A stretch of 63,498 nucleotides of DNA, the filler included, from Dirinaria sp. TL-2023a (taxonomy: Eukaryota), in the NCBI GenBank assembly GCA_051941275.1. It is 16 parts of 16 records of this genome, joined end to end, with 100 filler letters (N's around TTAATTAATTAA, not from the genome) between each part and the next. Parts side by side here need not be neighbours in the genome. Positions count along the whole stretch, not along the records: positions 1 to 3,904 come from JAVEBF010001942.1; positions 4,005 to 7,908 come from JAVEBF010001943.1; positions 8,009 to 11,910 come from JAVEBF010001944.1; positions 12,011 to 15,911 come from JAVEBF010001945.1; positions 16,012 to 19,909 come from JAVEBF010001946.1; positions 20,010 to 23,896 come from JAVEBF010001947.1; positions 23,997 to 27,875 come from JAVEBF010001948.1; positions 27,976 to 31,849 come from JAVEBF010001949.1; 8 more parts are not named here. The stretch is one strand, 5' to 3'. Within the stretch, counting starts at the first letter, position 1; each line of letters begins with the position of its first letter. Below are positions 79 through 63,498 of this stretch, piece by piece. A program made the translations under genes and the position numbers. Under the pieces are notes generated by a model. The model did not search any database, had not been told where the DNA came from, and saw only the letters and a program-made list of their open reading frames with translations.

Positions 79-3000
79 ATTTGATGATGTTTCGTCGAGA
101 TCGTCATCGTACAATTTGAAATCAGTAGTTATAAAATCTGAGTTCTTAAGTTTCATGTTCGACATCACTTTGAAGAAAGAGATATTGTAGTTTTTGTTCA
201 TCAAATCTATGAGCGACGAAGATAAAACGACTGAAATGATGACATTTTGTTTCGATTTTCGCGACATGATAAGTAAGTTCTTGATTGTTAAATCTTTCTA
301 TCACTGTATTTTCTTAAGTGATATTGATCAGATCTGAGAGTACGTCGTATGTGATTCTCAGAAGTGATTAATATGCGCAGTTGATCAGAGTCTATGAATA
401 GTGATCAGATAACTCACTTTTATATGAGATTTATTAATAAAAGTGAGTTGTAAAACTCGCGACAATGAGCTCAACGACGACGTCAATAATCTCATTTTTC
501 ACTCATTTCGAGTGCAGCTTTAAGAAAACAACGAGAAAATATGTCAACATTTTCGTCAGATCAGAATCGACTAAAAACGCGAAGATAATAGATTTCAGTG
601 CTAGTAATCGCTGTAGTCAATGATTGTTCGTCGATTGCAACGAAAATAAAGAGTCGAAACGCAAGAAGAAAAGTCGTTCATTAGAGATGACTGCAGTTTT
701 GAAATCTTTTGAAGATAAGATGTAATGCTAAGTAAAATTAAGTTGCAAATGTTGATCTTCTAAAAGTTAGCGCGAAAAGAATATCTTAGATAAACGAGAT
801 AAATGAATGCGCGCATAGACGCGCATTAGTATATTGAATAAATCGTAGTTTAAGATCTTTGCGAATCAAATCACTCAATATCACTTGATCTTTTTGACTC
901 TTCTCTTTCTAATAGTTTGATAATCTTCTTCAGAGCTTTCGAAAGTGTCGTTCGCTGTCAAATAGTCATATCGAAGCTGAAAGATCTTCAAATCGTCCTC
1001 ATGAAACGTTTCTCGAACATCTCTGTCATTCAGTTGAGTTATTATGAAGAACACATCTCGATGTCTCTCATAATTGAAAATAATAAACGATTCTCTTCAT
1101 CGAGATTCTAATTTTTCAGTATTCTTCTGATGTAGCATTACGTAGTCGTCTAAATTGTGACGATGAGATTTAATCTCTTTGTTGTATCTGTAGATCATGT
1201 TCTTTTTTTTACGCTTGATAAATTTATACACATGATCGTGAAGCTGAGCTCGATGTTGCACATATTGATGAACTGCAGTTGCATGCTTCGCGAGATTCAT
1301 AAACTCGTCGTGTTATTGCTTGATACTTCTCTCTGACAAAGTCAGTAATGTAGTCATGATAACAGAGATTTCTTGCATCGTCTTAAATAGTATGCTCGTT
1401 GAGCTCAAATCAAGATAAAAGATAATACGATCGTTCACACTTCGAGCGATCGCTGAAATTCGCTCATCTCAATCTGAACTCGATGAATCTTTTCGTAGTA
1501 TCTCTTCAACTATGTTGTTAGATACTTCTATCATGTCAATAAACTTCGAAGCACTCGATGAGTTATAATCAATAGTCACTCTCTCATCGCGAAGATACTC
1601 TCTCAACTCTTCGTTATTAAAATGATTGTCTCGATCGCAATAAATTGCATGAGATCTTCTGTACATCGTAAAGATCAATTCGAGAGCTCAAATTACATTC
1701 TCAACGTTGTCAGTTTTGATGACAAAAGAAATCACGAATCGACTAAAATAGCACACAATATTTAGTATGTATCGACATTTGCTTTTTCTCGTGAGTTTTA
1801 AAGACTCTACGAAGTTCATATCAATAAGTTGAAATGAATGAGTAACAAGCACGAGATGTAAGAGCTGAGATCGTGTTGCAGATTCATGTTTCGCACACTC
1901 AATACATCTCGTTATGTATCGTTCAACGTTCTGAGCTTGATCGAATCAATAACATCGATCTCTAATCTTTGTCATGATACTCGTCTTTGCTCAGTGATCG
2001 TCATTATCGTGTGTTTCATGTAAAATCGTACGTACTTTGCTCTCAAATACACAGAGTAAATACTGTTCACTCTGATATTTTCACAACACGCTCTGAATAA
2101 CGCGATAGTCAAAAGCTTGCTTCAACAACGTCGAGATAAATGTCGCAGAAATCTTGTCAGCTAAATAGTGATACATCTTCTCAAATTAAGTAGATTTTAG
2201 ATAGACGTTTTTTCAGAACTTTTCTAGCGTTTCTTCAGACGTGTCAATAGCTTTCTCAGAGACAGCGATTAAAGAAAATATCGATATCTCTTCGATGATT
2301 TCATGAGAAATTACTTCTTCACGTTGAGACGACGATTGTCAGGGCCTGCACAGCGCTCAATGACATATGGGTGCTAGTAGACTAGGACACTAACTATGAA
2401 GAAGAAAAGGAAAGGAAATCTATCTACAGGAAGACTCAAATAGGGACCCGGAGCAATATCGATCCGGGGGGACGCTAGACCTAATCATGTGACCTGATCA
2501 TGTGACCTGATCATGTGACCTGACCTAAGGTGCTCCAGGTCTAGGTTCATGACAGTCGTTAATGATTTTTCGCAGTCATCACTCTGTATGAACTGATCAT
2601 CGTTTTTGCGTTCTGCATGTAACAGATTTTGTTTTTGATTTAATTCTAACACGATACTTTATAAGATCTGTGCAAGATAGATTGAACAAGTTAATCTCGT
2701 TCAGATGACGATAATGATACAATAAACACAATACTTTGTGTCGAGCAGCAACTGAAGAAACTAGCGATCTCAGAATCAATTCGACTAACTCTGCTCATTC
2801 GTTCAATTTTTTCAGCGAAATATTCGACGATATTGAAGATCGAAGAATGCGTCTGAATAAATATGAGCTGTTCGACTCGACATCGATATAGTTGTTAAAT
2901 TTTGAAACTGAGTACGACGATGTACTCGAAGTACTGAAACTGAAAACAGATCATTCTGACACGATTATATCAGTTTCATATAGTTTAAAATCATGTCTAG

Positions 3001-3904
3001 AACTCTTTAAAAAAGATGCTTAACATCTTTCATCTCGAAGTTCTCGTCGTCATCGTTCTCATTATTCGAGTTACTCGAATCTGAGATATTCTTTTCTTCA
3101 ATATTGCTCACTTTATCAGAGACTAATATTATAAATTTGAGATACATCAGAAGATTGTGATCTTTGCAAAATATCAATTTGAGATCAATCACGACTCGAG
3201 TCTGCTCATCTAGACTAATATCGTTTATAGTAATAATAGACGTTTTTACAGAGATAACTGTATTTACGAAATACAATCAGAGTAATCTCAGAATAAGATT
3301 AAGATATTCAGTACGATCAGCAGCTGTGATATTTGATATTTTCGAGATCACGAAGCATCGAATATTTTTATGAATGCTCTCTATCGCGATATGTAATCAT
3401 ACTCAATGATGTAATATCGTCTTTTTACTGTCTGCTGTCTTCATCGACAAGCTTTTAAAATTTATTTCTTTCAAAGAATGTAAGATTAGCGACAGTAATT
3501 TAATCAACTCTGTCGAAATGACATTCATGTCTGAATTTTGATCTGCTTGAATATATCTTTTTTTCAAAATGACTGTAGTCTCATCTGATTTAATGATAAT
3601 GCACGATAATCGAAATACTTTATTCAGATCAATCATGACATTTAAAAATCTCGTATGTCTTTCGAAAACTTCTGCACTGAACACGTTTCTCACTCTGTCT
3701 TGAGTTGACGAGTTCGTTTGAGATTGTGAGTACTGTGATTACATGAATGAAAATGACGACATAGTGTACGCAGATCACGATTGAGATGTCTGTTGTATTG
3801 ACGACAGCGTGATAGCAAATTATTTCTCGACTTTCTTCTTGAAAATTCGAGTACATAATCTCTTCAGCTTCTTACAAATCTGAGAGAATCACGCAACTAA
3901 ATTT
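79..3904 (-). mobile_element. Decayed Ty3/Gypsy LTR retrotransposon pol (protease, RT start, integrase)
   Basis: Protease-like QADQNSDMNVIS (~3500-3550); RT N-terminus (2597-2779); integrase H-H-C-C finger HETHDNDDH...CIEC (~1890-2025); core IYCDRDNHF...MIEVSN (1469-1678). Many stops and almost no CC/GG. Confidence 0.88.
2337..2554. mobile_element. 218-bp solo-LTR-like insertion (TGTCA...TGACA) with three 13-bp TCATGTGACCTGA repeats
   Basis: Terminal inverted TGTCA/TGACA. Normal GG/CC content inside CC-depleted DNA. No matching TSD (ACGAT vs GTCGT). Confidence 0.8.
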
Positions 3905-4817
3905 NNNNNNNNNNNNNNNNNNNNNNNNNNNNNNNNNNNNNNNNNNNNTTAATTAATTAANNNNNNNNNNNNNNNNNNNNNNNNNNNNNNNNNNNNNNNN
4001 NNNNCCACTCCCCTTCCCCTGAACAATCGAAAGAGAAGAAAAGTATTCAACAAGACCGAAAGCACCTCCAAAAGCACAATCAACTCGAGCCAAGAAGTTG
4101 CAAACGTGCGGAGGCATATGGGTCTGAGGATTGTGAGTATAGGGATGACGAGGCTAAAGTGGAAAGTGTGGGAAGTGTGGAAGATGCGGTGGATAATATA
4201 TGTCCGAGGAGGTGTATAGGAGAGGGGGAAGGGGGACAGGCGAGGGAAGACGGAAGACGGGGGAAACATAGGAGTGTTGATCATTTAGCACGCCTACCAT
4301 TTGCAGATTGAGCTTTGATCTAGAGATATTCAATGACAGCATATTGTTTTCAGTCATCTGCATTTTGTTTTCCGATACGGACAATTTCTTGCTTGATTAT
4401 GTACACGTGTCTAGCGGAATGGCGCTCTTAAACATACCGGGGATTATCGGAAAGGTCGTTGATCTACAGTCGAATTGTGCTATGTGAGCCAGTCCTTAAT
4501 GCAGGGGGCTTCTTGTCGTGGGAGATCAGGACAATATGTTCTATGACATCGAAAAGGTGAATAAGGCAGCAATCAATATTATTTAGATAGTGCTACTGAG
4601 TTTCCGGTCCATATTGAAACTATGAAGAATAGTGAATAGGATTTGTCTAACAGATTAATTTCTTCATATTGGGAACGAACAGATCAACTCAGTCTTGTGG
4701 ACTAATTATTAGTCTACTTAGACAATTTTGCTAGCAATCATACATTAATGATCTACTTCAGGATCACAAACACGAAAAGAAAAGACCATCTCGCAGTAAC
4801 GCCCCAGCCGATTGAAA

Positions 4818-6457: not shown

Positions 6458-6509
6458 ATTTTCGCTTTCCCATATTACGCAGCGCTGAAATCGAACACAC
6501 TGGATGTGG

Positions 6510-7908
6510 TAGAAAACTCGATGATGATATGATAAACTTTCATTACTCAAATAGAACGAGCATTGAGTAAAGCGGTAAATCATCGAAAAAGTCTTGACAC
6601 TTGCGTCACAGTCGTTTGCGATATTATCAGACTTCTCTCGCTTGATGATCATCTTGAGCTGATCACGGCGCTGAGTTTTCCGTCGTCGACACAAAGTCGT
6701 TCGAGTATCGATTGTCTGAATTCTTCGTCGAAATTGTATTTCATAAAAGAGACTCTCATCGAGACTGCAGATCAATTGAACGATCGTGACTCGCTCGAGA
6801 ATGTTGTAAACGATCGGCTGAGTAGATTGTGTAAGTTGTGTGAATGTAAAAGAAATCGCCGCAGAAAAGAATTGAGCGTCAAAGATATAAGTATCAGCGA
6901 TTCGAAAGTGTCGCTTTCGAGTCTATACAATCATCTTAACTCGCAGTCTCTTTTTCGTAGCATTCAAGCGAGTCTCTGCTTTTTTCTTTTTCTGGAATAA
7001 GATCGTGTCTTGAGTATTCGCGATGTTTCTAAATCTCGCTCTGTGAATTCGTCGTGTGAGAATTTTATTGCGTTGATCAAGCTTGATCATCTTGAGATGA
7101 GTGATCAGTTTCGACTTCTGCTCGAAAAACAACTCTGTCGATACACTCGTATCGATCGTTAAACTGATAAGTTTGATCATCTTCTGTATCACCTCGTTGA
7201 ATGAGCGATCAAAATAACAGATCTATCAAAGACCCAACCTTGGTTAGATAGGTTTCCCAATGGTAAAAGTCCCGGCATGGCCAAAAGACTAACTACACCA
7301 AGTCAAGGGACTTGGTGCCTATCTTACTACTTAGGTGTTCCAGGGTCGTAACAAGATCTTGATGTCAAATCGAATCTCTTGATTTAAATAATAGCTCACT
7401 GCCTCTTGTTGATAATCGAAGATCTGATCTCGAACGAAGAAGAAAGTTTTATCTATTGCGAGTATCAGATCAGCGATTGAAAAGCAATCGTAATTATTTC
7501 GAGTTCGTAAATCAAAAAAAAAACAGACATACTATTGACGACATTTGAAAGATTACGACGAAGTTCATATTAAATAAAGAAGTGTTGAAAACTCGCTTTC
7601 ACCTCAAATCGCTTCAGATAATTAATTCAAATGCTCGCAAGTAGAGATTTCGTTCGCGATGTGTCGAACTCTCTCACGTCTCGTAATTTCTCACGAAAGA
7701 CTGAGAGATTTAGAACGTCGCGTTTTCATTTCAGTATCAAACTTTTCCTATTCGACGCTATTCTGATCAAAAAGATATTCTCAACATGTTGAGCTGACTT
7801 GATTTCGAAGACGTCATCGTGAGCCGCAAAAGAAAACAGATGATCGAGAAACGAGAACAACGAGTCGTCATTTTTTTTATCGATGATCATCGTTTTTCTA
7901 TTTACATT
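6510..7908 (-). pseudogene. DUF3435 tyrosine recombinase (Starship captain-like), mutationally inactivated; 5' part beyond the contig end
   Basis: Manual translation: SLILK*KRDVLNLSVFR...YLKRFEVKASFQHFFI*YELRRNLSNVVN, intron 7453-7532, VRDQIFDY..YYLNQEIRFD...LISLTIDTSVSTEL...TQCSFYLSNESLSYHHRVF. This matches recalled DUF3435 motifs (L.WK..L..PVFR, RLG..GF..Y.LRRG..N, SLT.DP.AP..L, QC.FCLGD..LP) after P->S, G->D/E/S/N, W->stop. Confidence 0.8.
7224..7353 (+). mobile_element. 130-bp mini-LTR-like element inserted in the DUF3435 relic; TSD AGATC
   Basis: TATCAAAGACCC...GGGTCGTAACA flanked by AGATC (7219-7223, 7354-7358). Removing it restores the DUF3435 reading frame. Confidence 0.93.
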
Positions 7909-8008
7909 NNNNNNNNNNNNNNNNNNNNNNNNNNNNNNNNNNNNNNNNNNNNTTAATTAATTAANNNNNNNNNNNNNNNNNNNNNNNNNNNNNNNNNNNN
8001 NNNNNNNN

Positions 8009-8129
8009 GCACGGATGAGGGGCGGGCCGAGGTTGCCCGTTGCTTGGAGGGAGGAGTGAGATGGGCGATAAAAAGGAAAGAGCTGAGACTTACGCCTATT
8101 AGGAGGACGTTTTTGATTTCTTGGGTCAT
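8009..8129 (-). CDS. 5' fragment of an NmrA/isoflavone-reductase-like NAD(P)-binding protein
   Basis: MTQEIKNVLLIG|GTAAGT intron|ATGNLGPPLIRA (GxxGxxG motif). The in-frame acceptor reads CCAA rather than CCAG. Truncated by the contig end. Confidence 0.55.
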
Positions 8130-12010: not shown

Positions 12011-12053
<43 letters not shown>

Positions 12054-28319: not shown

Positions 28320-28449
28320 TGTCAAAGACCCAACCTTGGTTAGATAGGTTTCCCAATGGTAAAAGTCCCGGCAGCGCCAAAAGACTAACTAAACCAAGTC
28401 AAGGGACTTGGTGCCTATCTTACTACTTAGGTGTTCCAGGGTCGTAACA
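28320..28449 (+). mobile_element. 130-bp mini-LTR-like element; TSD GAGAG
   Basis: TGTCAAAG...CGTAACA flanked by GAGAG (28315-28319, 28450-28454). Confidence 0.95.
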
Positions 28450-28865
28450 GAGAGAAGAGTGAGAAGTTCTGACATTCGTCGCGACTGATTCATGTATGAC
28501 AGAAACTTTTAACTGTGTGATAAAGATAAATCTCACTTGATCGAGCGTAAAATAAACTATTCTCGCTGTACTTTTGAAACTCTGTAGAACATATGCCTGG
28601 AGAAATGCTCCAAGATTAGTAAGTCATGATTTACAAGTTACTTAATATTGTAGATAGAGAACGTTAAATCTTCAAAACCGAAGTGCCTGAACTGAGTTTC
28701 ATTACGTAGGGTGTTTCACCACGCCAGGATAGAGTTTACTAAGTTATTCCATTTCCCCTACTGCTAAGCTTAACGATGTAGCGTAATGCGCCCACAGCGC
28801 CTAAGCACCTCTACGTAACTACATATCCTGCATGTTTAAGAGAATCTAACTTACCTGACATACTA

Positions 28866-29460
28866 TGTCGGTCGTGGGGCCCGCAAACCTTCTCAGATTG
28901 CCTGTAATAAAACTCACAAACTGCTGCTCAGCCTTCAGAACACCAGCAGGTTCACGTCGTGGCACCACGATCACCACCAACCTTCACGAAAAAGTCAAAT
29001 CTTGCTCCTATGTAACTTCTCCAGTCAACGACCCATTGGCAATCGCCGTTGCTACTTTATTTTTGCTCTTCCCCCAACCAGTCTGCTCTTCGCCGTATCG
29101 TATAATGACCACTTTTCTCTTCAGTACTCTTCCCAACCAAGTGCAAATCTATCCTTCTTGCGCCAAAAGTCATAAGACGTGACCTCAGCGACCTTAGCGA
29201 CCTCCTGACCTTCAATAGAAGCAGACGCTTTCTTCTCCAAAACCCCGCAGGGTTCTGCGGCTGAAGAACTGTGAGCCACTCCTGACTAGTGAGCAGATAC
29301 GTCTAGATATCTGATTATAAACCTTTTATCAATACCCATAATGATGTTTTCTTCTGTCTTCTGATTCTGCTTGTCGATTTGTTGCAATCACTGTCGAATT
29401 CGTGAGTGCTCAACAGTCGAAAGACGATGAAAGAATCTTGAGTGCTGAACGTGTCTGACA
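28866..29460 (+). mobile_element. Possible ~595-bp LTR
   Basis: TGTCGG...CTGACA ends and it lies among repeats. No TSD; the 3' part is CC-depleted. Confidence 0.35.
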
Positions 29461-29965
29461 TTTTTCAGCTTTCGATCTTATTTTTGTGAGATTGAGATGA
29501 GTCTTGCACAAATCTACGACTGAGTAAATCTGATGCTCTGCCACGTTCGTTACGGCCAAAGTGTCAAAAGTAGTGTTAGTAAGGATTCAAATTCTAAACA
29601 AGCGCATAATAGAAGAATTCTCCGAAATGCTATCTGCTGAACTCAACATGCATTTAACTTTATACAAAAAGACAACTTGCATGTATTTCTGACTCATCAT
29701 TGAAAATAACAATACATGCAAGAAGGTTTTATACATCTATCGCGATTCTTGAGAATATCTTCTTTCTATCGATTACATTCTCGTTCGAACAAAAGTATCT
29801 TTTGACGATTGAAACATTTTCATTCTTCGAGATTCGAATGATCTGAGAGCGCTCTAGAGAAATAGAGCAGTCTAAAATATTTTACGCATCGTCAGTCTCG
29901 TCACAATCATCTCACAGTATAGCATGAGTAATGTGACATATTTCGAGACAGACTTTAGTAGATGA

Positions 29966-30098
29966 TGTCAAAGACCCAACCTTGGTTAGATAGGTTTCCC
30001 AATGGTAAAAGTCCCGGCAGCGCCAAAAGACTAACTAAACCAAGTCAAAGGACTTGGTGCCTATCTTACTACTTGGTTTTGTTTCCAGGGTCGTAACA
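29966..30098 (+). mobile_element. 133-bp variant of the mini-LTR-like element; TSD GATGA
   Basis: Same sequence with a small 3' indel, flanked by GATGA (29961-29965, 30099-30103). Confidence 0.95.
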
Positions 30099-30579
30099 GA
30101 TGATGAAAATATTCAGTACATAAAAAGATTCGTTGCGTAGTCGCAGATTATCTGTATGTCGGAGATTTGCACTTTTCGTTGAACATCGTTTTACGCAGCT
30201 ACTCGTGAAGACTTGCAGAAGCTCATGTTTGATTGAGAGATGTACAAGTCCTTGGCATATACGTTCGAAACGTGATTGTTTAAGATCTTCTATAGAGGAA
30301 CAAGAGGAATGTGACTGCTAGAGACAATTGTACTTAAAAGACGTATGAATTTCGATCACGGTCTAATACGAATTTATCAAGCCATAGAAGCGCTTGCATG
30401 AAAAATTTGAGGGATTACGATGTAAACGCCCACACTTTAATTAGTTAATGTACTTGGATTCAATCTCATAGAGCAAGTTTGATATTTCTTAGCAAACGCG
30501 CGGAGGCTATTCTCATCACTGTATCTGGCTAATCCATAGCATAGTGCTTTTTCTTCTTCAGGGGTAAGCCGTTGCTCGT

Positions 30580-30721
30580 TGTCAGAATCTCACCCGTGAT
30601 TAGATAGATTTATCACATGGAAGTCTTGAATTAATCAAAAGACCAACTAAACCAAGTCTCTGACTTGACTGCCTATTCTAATACATACATACCTGCACTT
30701 CTTGGATGCAGGCCCGCGACA
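30580..30721 (+). mobile_element. 142-bp diverged relative of the mini-LTR-like element; TSD CTCGT
   Basis: TGTCAG...GCGACA, shares TTAGATAG and CAAAAGAC.AACTAAACCAAGTC...GACTTG..GCCTAT. CTCGT on both sides. Confidence 0.88.
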
Positions 30722-31021
30722 CTCGTGTGTATGAGCAATATTCAATATCTATAATCGTTGAAACTTCGTAATTACAGACTCGAGTCTCTGATCTCGCGAT
30801 GCATGATTCGAAATAGATACTTCTGCTCGAGGTATTATTTGTAGAAACTGTAGAAGAGGGTATGTAGTAGATAATATAGAACCAGAAGTAGAGTAAGAAG
30901 CAGAACATCTCAGAAAAATTGAGTGTAAAAGCATACGAATTGAGAAAAGATATATTGTCGTATATTCGTCATCATATCATGCATGCTGCTGCAGCATTCG
31001 AGCAATTTCAGAATCACATGT

Positions 31022-31849
31022 TGTAACAGTGATACCTGATACATTGGTATATATTGACCAATGCAGGCTAGCGCCGCTTGGCAGCCGGGGGTGCCCAGAG
31101 GCAATCCTTCGGGGTCTGAAGCATGGCTAGCGTCGTCTAGAAGTCAGCGTCGGAAGGTTGAATCCCGAGACTAACTAGAAGTCAGTGAGCGATTGACGCT
31201 TATAGAGCATTGTGTCTACGAGCGCTCGTGACCCGTCAGCGCGGGGCTCGTCACGGTGAGGTAATGTTAACGCTCGCGGTTAAGTATAGAGGATCACTCA
31301 CCCTTTCGAGAAAAGTTCTTAGTGATTAGTTCTAGCAGAAACTACAGTATGAGGTAGTCATATAATCTATTACACTGCTACGTCTTTCACACACGTACTG
31401 CGTCGACGGGTAATCGACGCATACGACCTTACAGTTCTAATCACTTCAATCTTTTGAAGGGAAAGACTCGAAGTGTAATAATGATGACGTCTTCGCGTGA
31501 AGTGTCAGAGTCTCAACAATCGAAAGACGATTTTGAAGTCGTTTCGAACGATCGCTCGCTCTTCGTCGCCGCGACTCTATCAAACGACGCTGAGTCAAAC
31601 AATAGTCCGAATATCTTACGAGATGAGCTCGCTCAACGCATTCATGACTTGAAATCTCAAAATCAGCTGTTACGAAATCAACAACGATTGCGAGATCTGA
31701 AAAAAGAGAATCGTCAATTAAATAACGATTTTTGTCTGAATTCGTCGATTCGACGACGTCTTTCTCTGTTAGAAATAAAAGCATTAAATCAGAGAAAATG
31801 CGTCTCTACAAAGAAAAGAGTCAAATCGAGCATATTAAATGATTTAAAG
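31022..31849 (+). mobile_element. 5' LTR (31022-31433) and decayed gag start of an LTR retrotransposon
   Basis: TGTAA...TTACA with a TATA-like motif, immediately followed by a Pro/Gly-poor coiled-coil ORF running into the contig end. Confidence 0.65.
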
Positions 31850-51072: not shown

Positions 51073-52193
51073 ACTCAATATGTGCCAATATTCAAGCTTG
51101 AAGCTTGGAAGGACAGTTGTATAAGATGCCGCCTGTACGAGCTCAAATCCATGATCAATTCTTGCGGTTATTAGATGTACATAGATAGATAAGGGGTTCG
51201 GTTGATGTACGCTTATTTGACGCCCGCACCCTTCTTTCATACCTGAGAGAAGGGTGCTAGGTGCTCACACTTGTACGATAATTTATTTTCTTTTTTTTTT
51301 TTTTTTTTTTTGAAATCACGTTCCAAAATCGCACCACCTGCGTGCAATAAATTCGTTAAAACCACCGCATGTATATATACAAACAATCAGATCCAAATTC
51401 CCGTAGAACTTCCTCGCTACTTCTTCGATGAATGCACTATTGAGAGTTTGCCAGAACACGATACGAAAGCAAACCATCATTTGTAAAAATGTTTTTTTTT
51501 TTAAGATTTCAAGACTTCGATCAAACGCAGTTCTCAATATAAAATATCAGCACAAAAAGCTGAGATAATGAATTCTATCAAAAATTGGAGTCTGATCCCT
51601 TTTACATTGTGAGCTATATATTCCTGTTTTTGGGGGCGGGCGGGGACGCGTTTGNNNNNNNNNNNNNNNNNNNNNNNNNNNNNNNNNNNNNNNNNNNNTT
51701 AATTAATTAANNNNNNNNNNNNNNNNNNNNNNNNNNNNNNNNNNNNNNNNNNNNGGGGGGGGGGGGGGGGGGGGAAGAAAATAGCAATTGTGATTGACTG
51801 ATGATGGTGATATATACATATACATCAAATCTGGATACTGAGTATACAACCTTGACCAATCGTCTGAAGTCCACTGGCCTAATTTCAATCCGATCACTGT
51901 CAGACGTGGGCTGATCTTGTATGTACACTGTAGATTATAAGATAACAGGAGAATTAGTAAGGTAAGGTAAGTGCATAAAGTAAGGTAGGTATTTGCATCG
52001 ACTTATTTTTCGCCCCTGCATTTGCTAATGCAGGTAAAACTGTCACGTGCCAGGTCCGAGTCTTTCCAAGGTCCTCAAGCGCATCTTGGGCACAATTCAC
52101 TCCAGACATCCAATCACAGCGAGGATCGCTTGCAGTGGAACACAAAAATTCTGAACAACCCTTGGCACAAAAAATAACCTCACATCATGTACC

Positions 52194-55267: not shown

Positions 55268-56071
55268 ACGAAAGGAATGCCCGGTTGTCAAGCTAGGGTG
55301 GGCGTTAATCGGGACGGGGGTACGGATGGGGAAGTTATGGAAGAGGCAGCCTTCTTTGGGACCTACGATGCATGTTATCGGGTGGATGCATTGAGAAAGT
55401 AGAATTAGATATGCATATCCGGCGTTTTTCTTCCGGGGGTTTTATTTTCAGGTTCATAGACGGGGAGTTTGTAGATATGACAGCTAACCATTAATTCTAG
55501 ATCGAATCTGATGAAGAAATATTACAATCAACTATATTGTGAGACGGGCCTATATCAAATTACTATATCAAGGAACAGTATTGTAGGATAGACCATCGTA
55601 GTGTCNNNNNNNNNNNNNNNNNNNNNNNNNNNNNNNNNNNNNNNNNNNNTTAATTAATTAANNNNNNNNNNNNNNNNNNNNNNNNNNNNNNNNNNNNNNN
55701 NNNNNCAGAACATGATGAGACGACAGAAGCGACTTGAGAAGTTGACTAAAACAGACTCGAAGTATGCAAAGTCACTAGATATCAAAGAATGCATGCTGAA
55801 AGTGCAGAGAATGATAATGAGGAAGCTTGCTGTGGAACAAAATCACTTCGAAGAACTGACGATTCGTCTCGACTTAGATATTGAAGATCTCGAGGCACGA
55901 ATGCAAGAGACAGAAGAGACGATAAAAGCCTTGCATTATTGACGATATTGAAAGTGAAAAATGTTCAATTGATGGAAATTTACTTGCACGCACATGAGTA
56001 TATCAGACGTGTTCTTTTTAAGAATCATGCAGAGAATCAAGATGAAACGCATTCTTCATAATTCAGCTTAT

Positions 56072-58597
56072 TCAAGTAATCATATCTAATTCATCTTCAA
56101 ACTTCGTATGATCTTCGAATTGACGAATGACTGTCTCAACATTCGAATCTTTGATCTTGAGCACCGTCTGAAGTTGTTCAGAACGAGCTGCGTCAAGAAT
56201 AGCGATCGAAGATGTCATCTTTAGCCTTTTACTATTGTCAAGTGCAACAAATCGAGCTTTAGATGACAGCTCTAGCGCTGTGACCATAGACGTCTTGTCG
56301 AGAGAGTCCGCGTAACGCTTACAAAATGTGTTGTCTATCATGAGCGACAGCACGATGAACGAAGACTTCTTTCTCATGTCTCTACTAGTTTCAGAAAGTA
56401 GTCGCGAGGTCTCTGCAAAAGATACAACATCGTCATGATTCTGCTGATTGAGCGTCAAACTTAGAGGTTGAGATTGAGATGATTGAAGCTGACTTTCGTT
56501 TTCTTTCTCTGTGTTCGTTGAATCTTTTAATGTTAAAGAATGACGATTCGTCATTTGAATATCTTTATTGTCTTGATTGTCTATGCTGACATTCATTCCT
56601 TCATTGAACGTGTTCGTTGAATCTCTTAATGTTGAAAGATGAGAGTTCGTCATTTGAATATCTTCATCGTTTCGATTGTTTATGATGACATTCATCTCTT
56701 CATTGAACGTCTTAACATTATCATTCTTAATCACATCATCTCTCTCTTCGTTCTTAGCAAGTTCATTTCGAAGAATTGCTGAATGAGAATTTTGATCTAA
56801 GTCATCTTCTTCGGAGCCAAAGAAACTGTGAAAGAAGTCTCGCTTTACAGCAAAAGATGTCAGATAACGCTTAGACACGTTATCATAAGAGCTCGAGTAA
56901 ATGTGATCAAGAAAGAGACTTTCTTGATTCGCTTGAAAAGATTGATCGAATGATCTATCGCATCGATCAGAAATGTCTGATTCGCAGTCATCATGATCTG
57001 ATGTCAATTCAGAAATCATCTTCATCTTTTCGGCGTATGAAACGTTGCTTAAAAGCTGACAATTGAGCTGCACTATTCGACGCATGCGTGTTGAATCGAT
57101 CTGATAATACTTTGACGATAGAATGCTACGAACGCAATCCTCAACTGCCTTAGCATCCGCTGCTTCGCGATCTTGATATTTTCGACGAAGCTCACGATAT
57201 TCATTATCTGACGCGAGAGAAGAGAGCTCATGCCATCATCGATGCTGCATTCTCGAACGTGAATCGCTTTTCTTGACGCTCTCTTTTCGAGGCGCTTGAC
57301 GATTCATCTCGAGGAAATGACGAAGACTGAAGAGAAAAATCTGACGATACGACAGTCAGAAAGAATTATCGAAAGGCAACGGTAGATTCTTGAAAATGAA
57401 CTCGCTCGTCTGCATCTTCATGTTCGTCTGCTCATTGTGAAGAGCGCGAAATTGTTGAGATATCGAGCCCTTTTCGTTGATTGATAGAAGCTTCTTCAGA
57501 ATTCTGACGTCAAACTTCAGCCATTTCGAATCTTCGATACACATATATATAGATGAGATCATGTATTTCATCGAGCAGATACGCTCGAAGATCTCTGCGC
57601 GTTGTTTATTGTTCTTGATCGCAGAGAGAATATCTCCGACAAGCATTCGCATTTGAACGAAGACGCGATCTTCTGTCGATCGAAAAGAACATCGATCTTG
57701 CAAGATTGCAACTGTATTCGCGTCAAGTTGCAGTTGATCGTTCTCTTTGTCTTCGATGATGTGAGTTCAGATCTTCGTGATTCAACGCAAACAGCGAGTT
57801 AGTTCCTAAAAGCTTTCGTCAGAAAGCGAAGGGGCATCGAAAAGAAGTTACAAACCTTCGCACAATGCAAATTCAACAGTCGGAGAAATGTATCGACTTG
57901 CACTGACGACCATAGATCTGCAAACGAGATAAGGGCGTTCAGACTTTCTAAGAAGCTTCTCGGTAATGTCTTCAGTCGTAGAAGACACTTTCGCTTGCTT
58001 TTCGAAAGTCTGATGAGCCATTTCTCTCTTCTCAAAGAGTCATTCGCTAGCGTGAAAAATCGAATCTGTCGAACAATGTCCTCATCATATCACTTAGAAG
58101 CATTGAGGTCTTGTTCTCGCAATTCGTTCTTCACGAGAGAGTTAAGATCTAGAAATGTCAGCAAATGAGTCAGAGAATCGTAGATCAAACTTTGCATCAT
58201 CAGCGTATAGATCGACAATTCATCATCTGTCAGTCCCTTTAAGAAACTTGCGTGCCGCGTCTAGACGATGTCTTTCATGCAGAACTTGTAGAGAGAACTT
58301 CGATACAAATCATCGCGATTCTTCGAAGATGTTGATGTCGTCTCCGTCGAGGCGACTTGCATCGATTAGAGCGGAACGAGATATTAGCGCTGACACGTGA
58401 TTTTCAGACTCTCGAGACTGACAATCTTTCGCGCGAAACACGTTCAGCAATCTCGTGACGTTCTTCTCGTCTCGTTGCCTTGAATTGCTGAGAAAATCTT
58501 CACACTCGAGTTTGTCGAGAGGAATCTGGAAAGCCTCACAAAAGGTTCTGCTTTTCTCTCGAAACATCTGCAAATTCTTGATCGATAGATTTTTCAT
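56072..58597 (-). pseudogene. DUF3723-family gene (Starship-associated), mutationally inactivated
   Basis: RQRDEKNVTRLLNVF...ENHVSALI, LQVLHERHRLDAARKFL..DR**IVDLY, KWLIRLSKSKR, LISFADLW...TFLRLLNLHC match recalled DUF3723 motifs (LHGRHR, WW.VDLY, PFPGLW) after transitions. Confidence 0.78.
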
Positions 58598-61312
58598 TAT
58601 GATATCGGAATTTACATCTTACCTTCGTAGAATCTTATACGCATAAGCGATCAGTGTTGATTGTAAAGTCATCAAGAAGTGAATGTATCAGAACTCAACT
58701 GCGGTGATTTCATCTATCGTAACTCGACTTTGAATAATGAAAATCACAATCTGTGCTCACAATTCGTTCTTTCTTCTGAGTCTTAGTTCTTTTTAAAGTC
58801 TGTCACGCTGACTTGACGACGTCATTTACATGCGGCGAGTGCTCTGCATTTCTAACTATGATGTGCTCTGAAACTTCAGAGGTGTCAAAAACGACGATTC
58901 GTCATCTTTTAAAGACTGTCGTCGAAGATCAGAATAGAAGAGTCTCTGATGCGATTATAATACTTTTACAATCTCTGTCATTCGTTTTACTTCAAATTCT
59001 TCACGACGTCGCGTTGCGACATTCATGTCAAAGTATTCAAGTTCGATCTAAAAAAGATGAATTCGACACAATATTATGCTATTGTCGCAGACGACTGCAT
59101 CACTCTTTTATTTATTGTTCATACGCTGAATTATCTCAGTTGGCTTTTCGTATCATTTATGACATTACTGCGAAAACTTTTTCTGTATCCTTTTCTCCTC
59201 CGCCGACATCGATTTTTGAGGCCTTGAACTCGTGCTCAGATGACCTTCGAACTGATCTATTTTGTCGTCAACGCTTTCTGTACTTTCTTCAAGATCTCTT
59301 CTGCGAGCGACGCGGCTATTCGAGCGAGACATCTATCTTTAATCAACATGGTGTCGATCTATTTTGAATTTCATTTGAGCTTTGTTTGTACATTACTCGA
59401 TGTATTTCTATCAATCTATCGACTCTTTCATGCATCAATAGAAACGATGTCTATCATTCTTGATGTACTTCATGTCATCATCAGCGCGACAGCAAAGTCG
59501 AGTCTTGACACGAGAGGATCAAAGAAGATGTTTAAATTAACTGTTCGTTACTNNNNNNNNNNNNNNNNNNNNNNNNNNNNNNNNNNNNNNNNNNNNTTAA
59601 TTAATTAANNNNNNNNNNNNNNNNNNNNNNNNNNNNNNNNNNNNNNNNNNNNAAAGTGACGATCGCAGAGTAACGAGATTGACAGTCGCAGAGTAATGAG
59701 AGTGAATCTGATAACGATCGTGCTTCATATTCGAGTAGTAAGAGTGAAAAAATTCTAACAGCAGATATAAAAATTCTGACATGCATAAAAAAGTAAAAGT
59801 TTTCGAGTAACAAAGATGAAAAAGTTCGTGAGAGTTCGTTGTGACGTCGAAGTCGAGTATTGAAAATGATGATACTGTACAAACGTGAAGCAGATAAGAA
59901 ATCATTGACCAAGCATTTTTGAAAGTCTTCGAGTAACGAGATTAATTTTGATCATGAGGCAGACGTGAGTCTGTCGAGTAGTGAGCATATATGTATTAAT
60001 CATGATCCTGTCTTTAGAAAACGTGCTTTCGAGTGAGTGCGATTTGTCGAGTATCGAGAGTGATTTGACTTTGAATTTGACTGTTTCAGAGTGTATATTA
60101 GAGTAGCAAGCGTGCGCATAACGATGACGAGCATCTCTGTCTAGAGATATACGTCTGTGATCATGCATCGTGTCGAGCAGCAGATGTGATCTAAATTCGA
60201 TTTTGACTGTCTCGAGAGTGTTGATCGAGTAATAGACGTGATCATCCTCTAGTAAAAAACCTCAAAAAAGAATATTTTGCAAAAACGCTATGATGCGGCG
60301 TTTTATTTTGCGCATGTACGTATGTTCATGATTTTGAGATTAGATTGAACCTTTAGTACTTATAGAAAGATGTCAAACGATAGATTTGCGTTGCTTGACA
60401 TAGACAGACGTTTAAATAATGAATGTGCCTCAACTGAGTGCTTCAGTTGCTTTCGAATGAGTTCGAAGAGATCGTATATCAACTGAGTTCGTCGAGATAA
60501 TAAAGTAAAATCTAATGTGTTCATCAAAACGATCACGTGTATGTCAATGAGTTCGAGATATTTAGAACGATTTCGAGTGACAATGCTAACTATGATACGA
60601 GTATGCATCGTCTCTAATCGAGTTCGTCTTCGCGATAAAGATTTGTCTAAATGATACGCGAGAGCGTTAAAGTGCACTCAATAGATCGTTAACGAATCGA
60701 AAAATTCTATTCTTATGCACACGTTGCATGATAATTTTATGTCTTTAAATCAGTGAGATTCAGTTATTCGAAACTTTAAAATTTCAATGTAACTCGAACT
60801 TATCTGAATGCGCATAATGAAAATCAATTACAAGATTCGAGCATTTTTTCGCGTTCGTGTAGTTTTATCATATCGATTGTTAATTGTGATCGAAGTCGTC
60901 GACATAATGAATTTGATATTGAAATGAATTTCGTTGTTTTGTCGATTACGTAAAATTCGATTTAAGATCTCTTTTTCGCATGTAAGGGAACCACAGCACC
61001 TATAGATAGAAGGCATAATATTTGAAGATACTATAACTATATACGAGAATATTAGATATGAGGAGGAAAGTATTATGAATGCTGGGGACCTTATATATAT
61101 GCACTAGTGATCTAGATGTTGAACCCCCGAACCTCTAGCACTAATGATCTAGATATAGTGAACCCCTAAACACGAATATTGAATTCTGAACCCGTGACAT
61201 CATCTCTTCTTTCAAATTCGAACTTCGACGATAAATGTTTTAATTTTCTAACAATTGTACCGTGTAATATCGTATGTTGTTAACTCATAAAAAACTTTGA
61301 CGATGCAGTCAA

Positions 61313-61895
61313 TGAGATGTCTTTTGTAACAGACTTGCTACGTGATATGAGATGTTTTTGTAACAGATTTGCTGTGTGATATGAGATGTCTTTTGTAACA
61401 GATTTACTATGTGATATGTTTCTTCAAATCCGACGCTTCGACGATGATTTTAAAAATCGTCATCGTCATCGTCGTCGTTGTCGTCGTCTTCGATGCTGTT
61501 ATTGTTATAAAATTTTTTTTTCACTTCGTTTCGTAAATATTTATTCGTTTTTTGACTTGAATACTCTTTCTCGTTGTTCGAGTTTTACTCATTTTCTTGA
61601 TCTAAATGCTTTTTCTCATATTGATTTCTTTCTTTTGAGATAACTCTCTCATCGCTCGATTTTTCTTTCTCGCTTGGATCTTTCTTATCGTTTGGGTATT
61701 TCTTTTCTTCTGAGTATTCTGACTCATCGTTCGAGTAGTTCTGGTCTGAGTATTCTGTTGACATGATAAAATAAAATGTGATTTGAGAGTAAGAAGAAAG
61801 ATAAAAAGATAAAAAGATAAAAAGATAAAAAGATAAAAAGATAAAAAGATAAAAAAGAAGATAAAATAAGAAAAAAGATAAGAAAAAAAATAAAA
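61313..61895. repeat. Internal tandem repeats: ~34-35-bp unit x3 and (AAAAGAT)n
   Basis: TGAGATGTCTTTTGTAACAGA... repeated three times; 7-bp array at ~61797-61895. Confidence 0.85.
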
Positions 61896-62337
61896 AAGAT
61901 AATTTTTAGACGTTGAAGATGTTATTATGTGTTGCATAATATGTTTGTATATGATATTGACTTTTGTGTGTTATCAAGCATAAATGTGTTGCATAAAAAC
62001 AGAATTCTGAGACATGCAAATACGACTTCTCGAATTGTTGTTTGAGATCGAAAAAGTACTTTTCTTAATATTTTGTACTCATATTTTTTAAAACATGTCT
62101 CGTTTTGCATGATAGAAAGTTGTTTGATTTTTTATTGTCTGAATAATAACAATTTTTTGTCGCATGCGATATGCTTATTGTAAATGTTATTGAAGCAGAC
62201 TCATTTCTGATATTAAACATCGACATGTCGTTCGTTTTGTTTATCTTTTGACGAGAAGATTAAAATCTTTTTAAAACAGACTCACTGTTCTTTTCAGATC
62301 GCAGTTTACTGTCGAACTGCTCTTAAAACAGACTCAC

Positions 62338-62555
62338 TGTTAGGACCAGTGCAGAGCAAGTCAATGCAGGTATAGTTAACTAAGATATTATCACTAAGGA
62401 AGGAAGAAGAAGGAAAGCTAGATACAATAGGGGGTCCCGGATATATATGCGTGTGTGCGGGTGTCGGGTAGACACCCCGATCGGGTTAGCGCATTACCCC
62501 TGAGAACTCTGAGAGGTGTTGCCCCAGATAGTATACCAGGTGCATGCTCGTAACA
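62338..62555. mobile_element. 218-bp solo LTR nested in the TRIM-like element; TSD CTCAC
   Basis: TGTTA...TAACA flanked by CTCAC (62333-62337, 62556-62560); GG/CC retained. Confidence 0.92.
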
Positions 62556-63498
62556 CTCACTTTGATTCATATCTCGCGCACGAGTATATATTTAATCGAT
62601 CATTAGATTATTTTGTTTCTTCGTGTACGATGTATTCAGAATATTATTTTTTTTAAATCGCAGTCTGCTATCGAACTACTCTTAAAACAGACTCACTTGT
62701 TTTTCTCAAATCGCAGTCTGCTGCCGAACTGCTTTTAAAACAGACTCACTGTCGTTTTTTCGTGTGCGATATATTCAGAATTTTCTTTTTCAGAGCGAAA
62801 ACAAGCTTCTTTGCAAAAATTTACTGTAGTATCTTCAGCAATTTAGCTTCAAATAATGTCGATAATACGTTAAAAATACGAGACGTCTTCGATTTCTAAC
62901 AAATATCCGATATTATATAAAAGAGTCATAGTATCTATAAATAGAAAATATAATATTTGAAGATACTATGACTATGTACGAGAATATCAGTTTTGAGAAG
63001 AAAAGTACTATAAGTGCTGAGAATCCCATATATATGCACTAGTGATCTAGGTGTTGAACCCCTGAATCTCTAACACTGGTGATCTAGATGTAGTAAACCC
63101 CTAAACACGAGTATTGAACCCTCAACCCGTGACATCGCATGTTCATGCGCGAGTTTATTATGACGAGAGCATCGTGATGCGTATAACTCGAGATATGTAT
63201 CGACGACGAGAATTGATAACGCTGTTTTCTCAACGAACGACTGATGATTAAATAAAACAATCACGAATGAAAAAATGAGTGAATTGCTGTCATTGACTCA
63301 AACAACTAAAATTTATACGCGCTGTTGTTATCAATAATCTCAATAATTTAAACGAGTCGAGATTTTTATAATTCAAAGAATGGTTTGAGCGCGTGATCTC
63401 AATGTTTCGTTTATCGAGCATGATCATGTCGTCAACTTTAAATTCAGAGACGATCTTTCGCTGATTGTTAACGTACTCGACTTGCTTGACTTGAGCTC

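What the first reader, a model, noticed from the sequence alone, without database searches (positions are those of the whole stretch)
79..63498. Non-canonical RIP-like genome defence: CpC->TpC hypermutation of repeats
Seen: long repeats (79-3904, 6510-7908, parts of 28-31.8 kb, 55706-63498) almost lack CC and GG, yet CA/TG and CG remain abundant (TCGA, TCATGA, GATC everywhere). Their ORFs lack Pro, Gly and Trp. Conserved motifs change in one direction: LGPF->LDSF (GAC TCG), HPW->HS* (TCG TGA), RPN->RSN, DRG->DRD, LHGRHR->LHERHR. These fit C->T at the 5' C of CpC on either strand, with Trp turning into TGA. Known: Neurospora-type RIP favours CpA->TpA. Inference: this fungus has a RIP or methylation-deamination system with a CpC preference that standard RIP indices would score poorly. 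I cannot confirm from here whether this has been described.
Basis: partly seen in the sequence, partly recalled or inferred. Interest (0 to 1): 0.85.

Follow-up and report, generated by a model that had tools for sequence, protein, structure and literature searches.

The report
CpC-specific repeat hypermutation in lichen fungus
Dead transposon copies in this lichen-fungus genome have had almost every C that sits before another C changed to T, a repeat-mutation signature that differs from the classical fungal one and is missed by the standard tests for it.

Summary
The window is 16 separate ~3.9 kb contigs joined by N/TTAATTAATTAA linkers. One ORF is 100% identical to a protein that NCBI names as from a Dirinaria sp. 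(lichen fungus) MAG.

Contigs 1, 15 and 16, and parts of contigs 2 and 8, have CC/GG at 0.18-0.36 of expectation. One 2252 bp stretch has 1 CC/GG where 136 are expected. TC/GA is raised, CG and CA/TG are kept, and TpA is not raised, so the standard RIP indices call them unaffected.

The depleted stretches are a Ty3-type retroelement and a DUF3723 (Starship-associated) gene, both killed by Pro>Ser, Gly>Asp/Glu and Trp>TGA changes.

The best context test uses DNA of related element copies from other public assemblies. Against an unmutated copy, one 9.7 kb copy has 809 C>T/G>A changes and 9 others. CpC sites are hit at 77%, against 2.5% for CpG, 1.1% for CpT and 0.5% for CpA. A lightly hit copy is strand-biased.

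This behaves like RIP, but with the reverse of the CpA > CpT > CpG > CpC order that I recall for Neurospora. Eight literature searches found no description of it. Homology dependence, timing and the enzyme remain inferred.

The parts
79..2341 (-). Hypermutated Ty3/gypsy-type retroelement remnant (contig 1, first part). The integrase frame is 1313-2185(-).
   Evidence: 1 CC/GG in 2252 bp against 136 expected. Pfam Integrase_H2C2 E=4.6e-9; rve E=4.6e-5, which is below Pfam's cut-off. Both matches need TGA read as W. Against unmutated homologues, 43 of 57 differences at conserved columns are explained by C>T/G>A alone.
2342..2545 (.). Short island with normal CC/GG content (29 CC/GG in about 200 bp) that interrupts the retroelement. 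It holds three 13 bp tandem units at 2478-2523.
2546..3904 (-). Hypermutated retroelement remnant, continued to the end of contig 1.
   Evidence: 0 CC/GG in 2570-3904 against 74 expected.
1..78 (.). End of a short MITE-like repeat of about 135 bp. It is unmutated and 100% identical to the copies in contig 8.
6510..7908 (.). Hypermutated tract of unknown element in contig 2. It abuts normal DNA at about 6510 and carries an unmutated island at 7192-7403 that holds the MITE-like copy at 7226-7353.
28442..31849 (.). Mosaic in contig 8. CC/GG-free tracts lie at about 28442-28677, 29338-29974, 30091-30249 and 31462-31849. Between them are normal stretches and two MITE-like copies (28320-28451, the first just before this range, and 29966-30100).
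55706..59552 (-). Hypermutated contig 15. It holds a DUF3723 pseudogene at 56078-58597(-).
   Evidence: CC/GG o/e 0.22. Pfam DUF3723 E=2.6e-51 with TGA read as W. tblastn of the Lepraria finkii homologue P0121, residues 1-772. Context tests.
59653..63498 (.). Hypermutated contig 16, element unidentified by Pfam. A Ty3-integrase-like C-terminal motif stretch lies at about 63200-63498(-); that resemblance is recalled, not tested. Unmutated islands are at 60986-61193, 62343-62540 and 63025-63128.
   Evidence: Islands 60992-61201 and 62927-63136 are 84% identical to each other.

Best explanation
A RIP-like genome defence has mutated these transposon copies, but with CpC as its preferred target instead of CpA.

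An enzymatic process converts C to T on double-stranded genomic DNA. It acts on long transposon-derived stretches, working largely on one strand per event. Its nearest-neighbour rule is CpC >> CpG > CpT > CpA, with a weak 5' effect (T > A > C > G). Repeated rounds saturate every CpC site, so the DNA ends with no CC or GG at all.

The consequences for coding sequence are:
- Pro becomes Ser, Leu or Phe.
- Gly becomes Asp, Glu, Asn or Lys.
- Trp (TGG) becomes TGA.
- GC falls only to about 35-40%.
- No TpA is made.

Shown: the signature, its context specificity, its near-exclusivity over other substitution types, the strand bias of a lightly hit copy, saturation, sharp boundaries, and the exemption of very short repeats.

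Inferred: that sequence duplication is the trigger, that it happens before meiosis, and that a RID/Masc1- or DIM-2-type cytosine methyltransferase homologue with altered flanking-base preference is the agent.
For: Window composition:
- CC/GG is nearly absent on both strands over several kb, while CG and CA/TG are kept and TC/GA is raised.

The depleted stretches are mobile-element genes:
- A Ty3-type integrase and a DUF3723 gene, both recognisable only when TGA is read as W.

Codon-level test on the DUF3723 gene, against the top 14 of 55 homologues, all with normal Pro/Gly content:
- 379 conserved columns were compared and 94 differ.
- 68 of the 94 are explained by C>T/G>A alone.
- 19 of 24 inferred C>T changes have a 3' C, and 34 of 48 inferred G>A changes have a 5' G.

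Codon-level test on the integrase, against 14 of the top 30 representative homologues:
- 57 of 145 conserved columns differ, and 43 of these are explained by C>T/G>A alone.
- 12 of 15 C>T have a 3' C, and 24 of 33 G>A have a 5' G.
- 6 Trp columns are stops.

DNA-level test on the window's own gene:
- CpC is hit at 50 of 92 sites, against CpA 9 of 105, CpG 11 of 126 and CpT 21 of 111. Controls are flat.

Related element copies from other assemblies (53 loci):
- 10 of 53 have CC/GG o/e of 0.15 or less.
- 9 copies were aligned to unmutated L010 over 9.7 kb.
- L006: CpC 764/991, CpG 24/948, CpT 14/1284, CpA 6/1308. It has 809 C>T/G>A changes and 9 other substitutions.
- L003: 92 of 109 C>T/G>A changes are at CpC, with 94 G>A against 15 C>T.
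- L027: CpC 89%, CpG 28%, CpT 9%, CpA 5%.
- A second subfamily agrees: L032 against L024 has CpC 105/112.

Short repeats embedded in saturated DNA keep their CC/GG:
- Four copies of a ~135 bp element and a ~210 bp pair. This fits a minimum-length rule like that of RIP.
Against: - Copy number of the mutated elements in this genome could not be measured. No genome is held and no runs were listed, so 'repeat-induced' rests on their being transposon genes and on multi-copy relatives in other assemblies.
- The cleanest context data come from other, unnamed assemblies, not from this organism.
- Some assemblies hold an unmutated copy beside a saturated one (L009 and L026; L011 and L012). That needs copies of different age.
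- The unmutated short islands could simply be younger insertions rather than proof of a length threshold.
- From the passages I read, both known Neurospora RIP pathways (RID and DIM-2) prefer CpA (10.1101/344036). A RID-type enzyme with CpC preference has no precedent that I could find.
- Canonical CpA-type mutation occurs in the same assembly series, never on the same fetched stretch as CpC-type. So it is not settled which fungus in a lichen carries which process.
- Contigs of a metagenome bin can be mis-binned. Only contigs 2 and 8 physically link depleted DNA to normal DNA.
Confidence: 0.8

Rival explanations
1. The hypermutation is enzymatic and CpC-specific, but it is not RIP in mechanism. 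A different deaminase, for example a double-strand or single-strand DNA cytosine deaminase, would be aimed at transposons by heterochromatin, small RNA or replication/transcription intermediates. It would not depend on pairing of duplicated DNA or on a RID-type methyltransferase.
For: The context order is opposite to that of the known RIP pathways (passages of 10.1101/344036). The lightly hit copy is strand-coordinated (94 G>A against 15 C>T), as deaminase clusters on single-stranded DNA also are. Unmutated and saturated copies coexist in one assembly. CpA-type and CpC-type tracts are mutually exclusive on the fetched stretches.
Against: Specificity is set mainly by the 3' neighbour, as in CpN-type RIP. 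The AID/APOBEC and DddA-type deaminases that I recall read the 5' neighbour; that is recalled, not tested. Heavy copies are hit about equally on both strands (405 C>T, 404 G>A in L006). Tracts run for more than 9.7 kb with sharp edges, and they cover a non-retroelement gene.
Confidence: 0.13
2. Slow decay. A methyltransferase places 5mC at CpC in silenced transposons, and spontaneous deamination erodes those sites over a long time.
For: CG and CA are spared while one context is lost, as in CpG decay in methylated genomes. Copies show graded levels of mutation, from 9% to 89% of CpC sites.
Against: Copies with 77% of CpC sites changed carry almost no other substitutions: 9 against 809 over 9.7 kb. 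So the changes accumulated far faster than background divergence. The strand bias of the lightly hit copy points to bursts.
Confidence: 0.05
3. Not a mutation signature of this fungus at all. The depleted contigs would be native odd composition of foreign DNA, mis-binned DNA, or an assembly or sequencing artefact.
For: The window is a fragmented metagenome bin of short contigs. Two contigs start with homopolymer runs.
Against: The depleted frames are recognisable genes with TGA exactly at conserved Trp columns and Ser/Asp/Glu at conserved Pro/Gly columns. Contigs 2 and 8 join depleted DNA to normal DNA. An identical 78 bp repeat is shared by depleted and normal contigs. The same signature, with direct unmutated counterparts, is found in 10 loci from 8 other assembly prefixes, on contigs of up to 243 kb.
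Confidence: 0.02

Closest known systems
Repeat-induced point mutation (RIP) of Neurospora crassa and other Pezizomycotina (RID-dependent and DIM-2-dependent pathways)
   Same: Only C:G>T:A transitions. It acts on long transposon or duplicated DNA on both strands, and a lightly hit copy is strand-biased. It can saturate, has sharp tract edges, spares very short repeats, and inactivates genes through stops and missense changes.
   Different: The target dinucleotide is CpC, followed by CpG, CpT and then CpA. This is the reverse of the CpA > CpT > CpG > CpC order that I recall for Neurospora. No TpA is produced, GC drops only to 35-40%, and the Margolin-type indices used by RIPCAL and RIPper score these tracts as unaffected. 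Dependence on duplication, sexual-cycle timing and enzyme were not tested.
RIP-like CpG-context hypermutation (TpCpG) in Pucciniomycotina basidiomycetes (Horns et al. 2012, PMC3318451; I saw only the search listing and the start of the abstract, and the trinucleotide is recalled)
   Same: A transposon-directed C>T hypermutation whose context is not CpA.
   Different: That one targets CpG and depletes CG. Here CG is spared in the window (o/e 1.5) and is only a secondary target in the most heavily mutated related copies (13-28%).
APOBEC3G-type editing of retroelement cDNA
   Same: C>T hypermutation associated with CC dinucleotides that creates TGA or TAG stops at Trp codons.
   Different: As I recall, APOBEC3G deaminates the 3' C of CC on minus-strand cDNA, which gives GG>AG on one strand only and only in retroelements. 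Here the 5' C is hit (GG>GA), both strands are hit, the tracts exceed 9.7 kb, and a non-retroelement gene is affected.
Methylation induced premeiotically (MIP, Ascobolus; recalled)
   Same: It would share the repeat-sensing, RID/Masc1-family logic if the inferred mechanism is right.
   Different: MIP methylates without mutating. Here the DNA sequence itself is changed.

Membership tests
RIP (repeat-induced point mutation) | Changes are almost exclusively C:G to T:A transitions. | tested here: met
   L006 against L010: 809 C>T/G>A and 9 other substitutions over 9.7 kb. In the window, 68 of 94 (DUF3723) and 43 of 57 (integrase) differences at conserved columns are explained by C>T/G>A alone.
RIP (repeat-induced point mutation) | Confined to duplicated DNA above a length threshold, with single-copy genes spared. 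| tested here: inconclusive
   Affected tracts are transposon genes. The 11 gene contigs are unaffected, and short repeats of 78-210 bp are unaffected. Related copies are multi-copy within single assemblies. Copy number in this genome could not be measured.
RIP (repeat-induced point mutation) | CpA is the preferred target and TpA is the product (Neurospora type). | tested here: not met
   CpA is the least-hit context: 6 of 1308 sites against 764 of 991 for CpC. TA o/e is 0.47-0.75 in the depleted contigs.
RIP (repeat-induced point mutation) | Standard indices: TpA/ApT above 0.89 and (CpA+TpG)/(ApC+GpT) below 1.03 (thresholds as quoted in PMC3897900). | tested here: not met
   Contigs 1, 15 and 16: TpA/ApT 0.65, 0.46 and 0.76; substrate index 1.18, 1.34 and 1.05; composite index negative for all three.
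RIP (repeat-induced point mutation) | Single events mutate mainly one strand. | tested here: met
   L003: 94 G>A against 15 C>T across 9.7 kb. L012: 165 against 132. Heavy copies are balanced. These are related loci, not the window.
RIP (repeat-induced point mutation) | Occurs in the premeiotic dikaryon and needs RID and/or DIM-2. | not testable with these tools
   No genome of this fungus is held. No crosses or methylomes are available.
APOBEC-type retroelement editing | One-strand G>A bias tied to cDNA, specificity set by the 5' neighbour, retroelements only. | tested here: not met
   CC and GG are equally absent. L006 has 405 C>T and 404 G>A. The 3' neighbour decides the outcome: NCC is hit at 0.67-0.87, against CCG/CCT/CCA at 0.00-0.02. 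A DUF3723 gene is affected.
CpG methylation-deamination decay | CpG depletion with a rise in TpG/CpA. | tested here: not met
   CG o/e is 1.49-1.63 in depleted contigs. CpG is mutated at 2.5% when CpC is at 77%.

The most novel reading that the evidence does not exclude
Lichen-forming Lecanoromycetes carry a second repeat-mutating pathway with strict CpC specificity, distinct from canonical CpA-type RIP. The two may coexist in one genome but act on different tracts. That would imply a separate enzyme, or a RID/DIM-2 paralogue with a re-tuned flanking-base pocket, and a large class of 'RIPped' DNA that kingdom-wide surveys have missed.
Probability: 0.25. Interest if true: 0.9.

Novelty: new variant of a known kind. 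Interest (0 to 1): 0.8.

Why it matters
RIP is detected almost everywhere with CpA/TpA-based indices or with low GC. The papers on lichen-fungus genomes that I read do so with RIPper or a GC threshold (passages of 10.1101/2025.11.25.690456, 10.1101/2023.01.10.523206 and PMC12542154). A 2025 kingdom-wide survey concluded that RIP-like defences share a CpA preference (PMC12543289, section 9 read in full).

A clean, saturating CpC-specific process would have four consequences:
- A whole class of mutated repeats is invisible to those tools.
- It offers a natural specificity switch for finding what sets the target context of the RIP machinery, by comparing RID, DIM-2 and DNMT5 between CpC-type and CpA-type genomes.
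- It explains odd database entries. Public protein collections hold Pro/Gly-free 'proteins' that are exact table-4 translations of such DNA, with every Trp a TGA.
- It warns that these tracts can mimic TGA recoding.

Tried and rejected
- Whole genome: none is held for this window.
- Earlier notes of this scan: three look-ups gave nothing relevant.
- Within-window copy alignment: the long depleted contigs are not similar to each other at DNA level. The one ~210 bp island pair has too few, bidirectional differences to show a context.
- Pfam on six-frame read-through of contigs 1 and 16: only the integrase zinc domain was found. No RT or RNase H was found, and nothing credible for contig 16.
- Taxonomic placement of the normal half of contig 2: 5 hits, none named.
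- Placement of a gene flanking a CpC-type block in L051: the atlas gave only 'Ascomycota'.
- Searching the records behind the metagenome loci: they are not held. I therefore could not test whether CpA-type and CpC-type tracts share a contig beyond the fetched 6-10 kb.
- Canonical CpA RIP as the explanation for the window: rejected.
- Literature: eight full-text searches found no report of CpC-dominant RIP. I also read passages of PMC2621366, PMC3897900, PMC12543289, PMC12542154, PMC4943192, PMC5555474, PMC13535494, 10.1101/2025.11.25.690456, 10.1101/2023.01.10.523206 and 10.1101/344036. In PMC5602860 'CPC' is only a strain code.
- Subscription papers, such as Clutterbuck 2011, and supplements were not seen. 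They could hold such a report.

Full report
WHAT THE WINDOW IS

The 63,498 bases are not one locus. Fifteen spacers of 44 N, TTAATTAATTAA and 44 N split the window into 16 pieces of 3904 down to 3846 bp, in descending size. These are the short contigs of a fragmented assembly.

The ORF at 36018-37016(-), a dihydropteroate synthase domain, is 100% identical to a protein that NCBI names 'MAG: hypothetical protein Q9191_007990 [Dirinaria sp. TL-2023a]', on a contig of 3865 bp. That is exactly the length of piece 10. The next named hits are lichen-forming Lecanoromycetes.

No whole genome is held and no sequencing run was listed. Everything about this organism therefore rests on these 16 contigs.

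Strand-symmetrised observed/expected CC/GG by contig:
- Contig 1 (1-3904): 0.18.
- Contig 15 (55706-59552): 0.22.
- Contig 16 (59653-63498): 0.36.
- Contig 2: 0.78, and contig 8: 0.65. Both are mosaics.
- The other 11 contigs: 0.93-1.05.

In the three depleted contigs TC/GA is 1.38-1.68, CG 1.49-1.63, CA/TG 1.03-1.09 and TA 0.47-0.75.

Counted directly against base-composition expectation:
- 79-2330: 1 CC or GG where 136 are expected.
- 2570-3904: 0 where 74 are expected.
- 6510-7225: 7 against 56.
- Contig 15: 67 against 308.

The loss is equal for CC and GG. The tracts have sharp edges, at 79 and at about 6510.

The classical RIP indices do not flag these contigs. TpA/ApT is 0.65, 0.46 and 0.76. 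(CpA+TpG)/(ApC+GpT) is 1.18, 1.34 and 1.05. The composite index is negative for all three. No 500 bp window anywhere in the window has CA/TG below 0.72.

WHAT THE DEPLETED DNA ENCODES

With TGA read as Trp, long frames open up.

- Contig 1: a 290-codon frame at 1313-2185(-) matches the integrase zinc-binding domain (E 4.6e-9). It also matches the integrase core, but below Pfam's cut-off. This is a Ty3-type retroelement remnant.
- Contig 15: frames covering 56018-58618(-) match DUF3723 over nearly the whole profile (E 2.6e-51, 6e-14 and 2.2e-15). A full-length Lepraria finkii homologue aligns over 56078-58597(-). DUF3723 is listed as a typical auxiliary gene of Starship elements in the passages I read of 10.1101/2025.11.25.690456.
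- The integrase frame has no Pro or Gly codon. The DUF3723 frame has 10 TGA, 3 TAA and 1 TAG stops.

DIRECTION AND CONTEXT IN THE WINDOW'S OWN GENES

DUF3723 gene, protein level. I aligned the frame to the top 14 of 55 homologues; all 14 have normal Pro/Gly content. I kept only columns with at least 6 residues and at least 70% agreement.
- 379 columns were kept and 94 differ.
- The commonest changes are Pro>Ser (11), Asp>Asn (10), Glu>Lys (6), Gly>Glu (5) and Gly>Asp (4).
- 68 of the 94 are explained by C>T or G>A alone.
- Of the inferred changes, 19 of 24 C>T have a 3' C, and 34 of 48 G>A have a 5' G.
- 9 G>A have a 5' C and 1 C>T has a 3' G. These are CpG-type changes.

Integrase, protein level. 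I aligned the frame to 14 of the 30 best representative homologues, those with Pro+Gly above 6%. I kept columns with at least 60% agreement.
- 57 of 145 columns differ, and 43 are explained by C>T or G>A alone.
- 12 of 15 C>T have a 3' C, and 24 of 33 G>A have a 5' G.
- 6 Trp columns are stops.

DUF3723 gene, DNA level. I compared it with a consensus of 7 unmutated relatives, using columns with at least 4 bases and at least 80% agreement.
- CpC is changed at 50 of 92 sites, CpT at 21 of 111, CpG at 11 of 126 and CpA at 9 of 105.
- Three unmutated relatives treated the same way give flat rates of 4-14%.

The choice of the closest ancestral codon, and the use of a consensus context, both add noise. 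The CpT figure is probably inflated by sites that were CpC in the true ancestor.

DIRECT PROOF OF THE SIGNATURE IN RELATED COPIES

A profile of the DUF3723 family retrieved 53 loci from public metagenome contigs, mostly with names beginning JAABU or JAABVA.
- 10 of 53 have CC/GG o/e of 0.00-0.15, with TC/GA 1.58-1.90.
- These loci are depleted over the whole 3.7-9.8 kb fetched.

One subfamily has unmutated members and graded mutated members that align end to end over 9.7 kb. I aligned 10 of its 12 loci. I left out L011, which is identical to L010, and the short L005. Results against unmutated L010:
- L006: CpC changed at 764 of 991 sites, CpG 24 of 948, CpT 14 of 1284, CpA 6 of 1308. There are 405 C>T, 404 G>A and 9 other substitutions.
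- L004: similar, at 76% of CpC.
- L012: 26% of CpC.
- L003: 9% of CpC, with 94 G>A against 15 C>T, which is a strong strand bias.
- L013, L014 and L026: 88% of CpC, and now 13-15% of CpG.
- L027: 89% of CpC, 28% of CpG, 9% of CpT and 5% of CpA.
- L009 shows no C>T excess. Its 57 C>T/G>A changes are outnumbered by 135 other substitutions.

It is the C followed by C that changes. NCC is hit at 0.67-0.87 in L006. A C preceded by C but followed by G, T or A is hit at 0.00-0.02. Early on there is a mild 5' effect: in L012, TCC 0.39, ACC 0.26, CCC 0.19 and GCC 0.13.

A second subfamily agrees. L032 against L024 has CpC 105 of 112 and CpG 29 of 142. L033 and L034 are identical to L032, and L037 is identical to L024, so these were left out.

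The near absence of other substitutions means this is a fast, enzymatic burst process and not slow decay.

HOW IT MOST LIKELY WORKS

The behaviour matches RIP in these respects:
- Only transitions occur.
- Both strands are hit overall, but largely one strand in a lightly hit copy.
- It acts on long mobile-element DNA.
- Tract edges are sharp.
- It can reach saturation.
- Very short repeats are spared.

On the last point, four copies of a ~135 bp element are 92-100% alike and keep all their CC/GG, although three of them lie within or beside saturated tracts. They are at 1-78, 7226-7353, 28320-28451 and 29966-30100. The ~200 bp islands in contigs 1 and 16 keep theirs too.

The difference is the target rule: CpC, then CpG, CpT and CpA. 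That is the reverse of the Neurospora order as I recall it. The passages I read state that both Neurospora pathways prefer CpA, DIM-2 even more than RID (10.1101/344036).

My best reading, at about 0.8, is a RIP-type process whose cytosine-modifying enzyme has a different 3'-neighbour preference. The trigger (duplication), the timing (premeiotic) and the enzyme are inferred.

RIVALS

- A non-RIP deaminase aimed at transposons (about 0.13). The 3'-neighbour rule, the balance between strands in heavy copies, and long tracts over a non-retroelement gene argue against it.
- Slow 5mC decay (about 0.05). The 809:9 ratio argues against it.
- Foreign DNA or an artefact (about 0.02). Three things argue against it: TGA at Trp columns, the physical junctions in contigs 2 and 8, and the same signature with unmutated counterparts in 8 other assembly prefixes.

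AN UNRESOLVED POINT

The same assembly series also holds canonical RIP.
- L046 and L050 have CA/TG o/e of 0.01 and 0.04, with TA at 1.36 and 1.43.
- L007 against L001 has CpA changed at 66 of 191 sites, against CpC at 2 of 199.
- L036 shows CpA at 46%.
- L007 (CpA-type) and L004 (CpC-type) share the prefix JAABUP. L046 and L050 (CpA-type) and L006 (CpC-type) share JAABUS. Both kinds lie on contigs longer than 100 kb.
- No fetched stretch shows both signatures.

Two explanations remain. Two fungi in one lichen may each have their own rule, or one genome may have two pathways that do not overlap. I could not extend the contigs to decide.

COMPARISON WITH WHAT IS KNOWN

Eight full-text searches found no report of CpC-dominant RIP.
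- RIPCAL defines a CpC index but reports CpA dominance (passages of PMC2621366).
- The 2025 kingdom-wide k-mer survey concludes that RIP-like defences share a CpA preference, and it never mentions CpC (PMC12543289; section 9 read in full, term search for the rest).
- The lichen-genome papers I read infer RIP from GC content or from RIPper (passages of PMC12542154, 10.1101/2025.11.25.690456, 10.1101/2023.01.10.523206 and PMC3897900).
- Subscription literature and supplements were not seen, so a prior report cannot be excluded.

I classify this as a new variant of a known kind.

A PRACTICAL BY-PRODUCT

- 6 of the 55 DUF3723 homologues have at most 0.5% Pro and 0.8% Gly.
- 11 of the 30 best integrase representatives have at most 0.8% Pro and 0.3% Gly.
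- Of 9 database proteins checked (5 of those 6 homologues plus 4 members of their clusters), 8 were found to be exact table-4 translations of the CC/GG-free loci. In seven, every Trp is a TGA; the eighth has no Trp.
- Hypermutated transposons are therefore entering protein databases as if they used a TGA=Trp code.

VERDICT

The mechanism is RIP-like by behaviour but unproven as to trigger and enzyme. Interest is high: the standard tools miss this signature, and it gives a comparative route to the specificity determinant of RIP.

Noticed in passing
window 3905-4004 and 14 further spacers about every 3.9-4.0 kb: The window is 16 contigs joined by N44-TTAATTAATTAA-N44 linkers, in descending size. 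Neighbouring pieces are not genomic neighbours.
   Followed up: yes
window 1-78, 7226-7353, 28320-28451, 29966-30100: A ~135 bp MITE-like element is present in four copies, 92-100% alike. Read by eye on alignment A2, it seems to have short matching flanks, possibly 5 bp target duplications. It is unmutated although three copies lie within or beside CC/GG-free DNA. Contig 1 breaks inside it.
   Followed up: partly
proteins P0144, P0153, P0168, P0170, P0177, P0178, P0197 on loci L014, L027, L006, L034, L026, L013, L032: Public protein collections hold Pro/Gly-free 'proteins' that are exact table-4 translations of hypermutated DNA. All their Trp residues are TGA codons (2-11 per protein), so these tracts mimic TGA recoding.
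   Followed up: yes
L046, L050, L007, L036: Classical CpA>TpA RIP (CA/TG o/e down to 0.01) affects relatives of the same element family. It occurs in the same assembly prefixes that hold CpC-type copies, but never on the same fetched stretch.
   Followed up: partly
L003-L014, L026, L027 (whole loci): The DUF3723 gene sits in a repeated unit longer than 9.7 kb. The 4 kb upstream of the gene is conserved across many loci, which fits a large Starship-like element. L036 carries a second DUF3723 gene downstream at 7097-8076.
   Followed up: partly
window 12011-12030 and 51755-51774: Contig 4 starts with a run of at least 20 A, and contig 14 with a run of at least 20 G. These are probably read-end or assembly artefacts.
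   Followed up: no
window 2478-2523: Three tandem 13 bp units (GACCTGATCATGT-like) lie inside the unmutated island that interrupts the retroelement.
   Followed up: no
window 12419-13795(-), 17843-19048(+), 45461-46282(-), 33257-34759(+): Ordinary fungal genes lie on the unaffected contigs: a sugar transporter, a PIG-N GPI ethanolamine-phosphate transferase, a histidine acid phosphatase and an SH3-domain protein.
   Followed up: no
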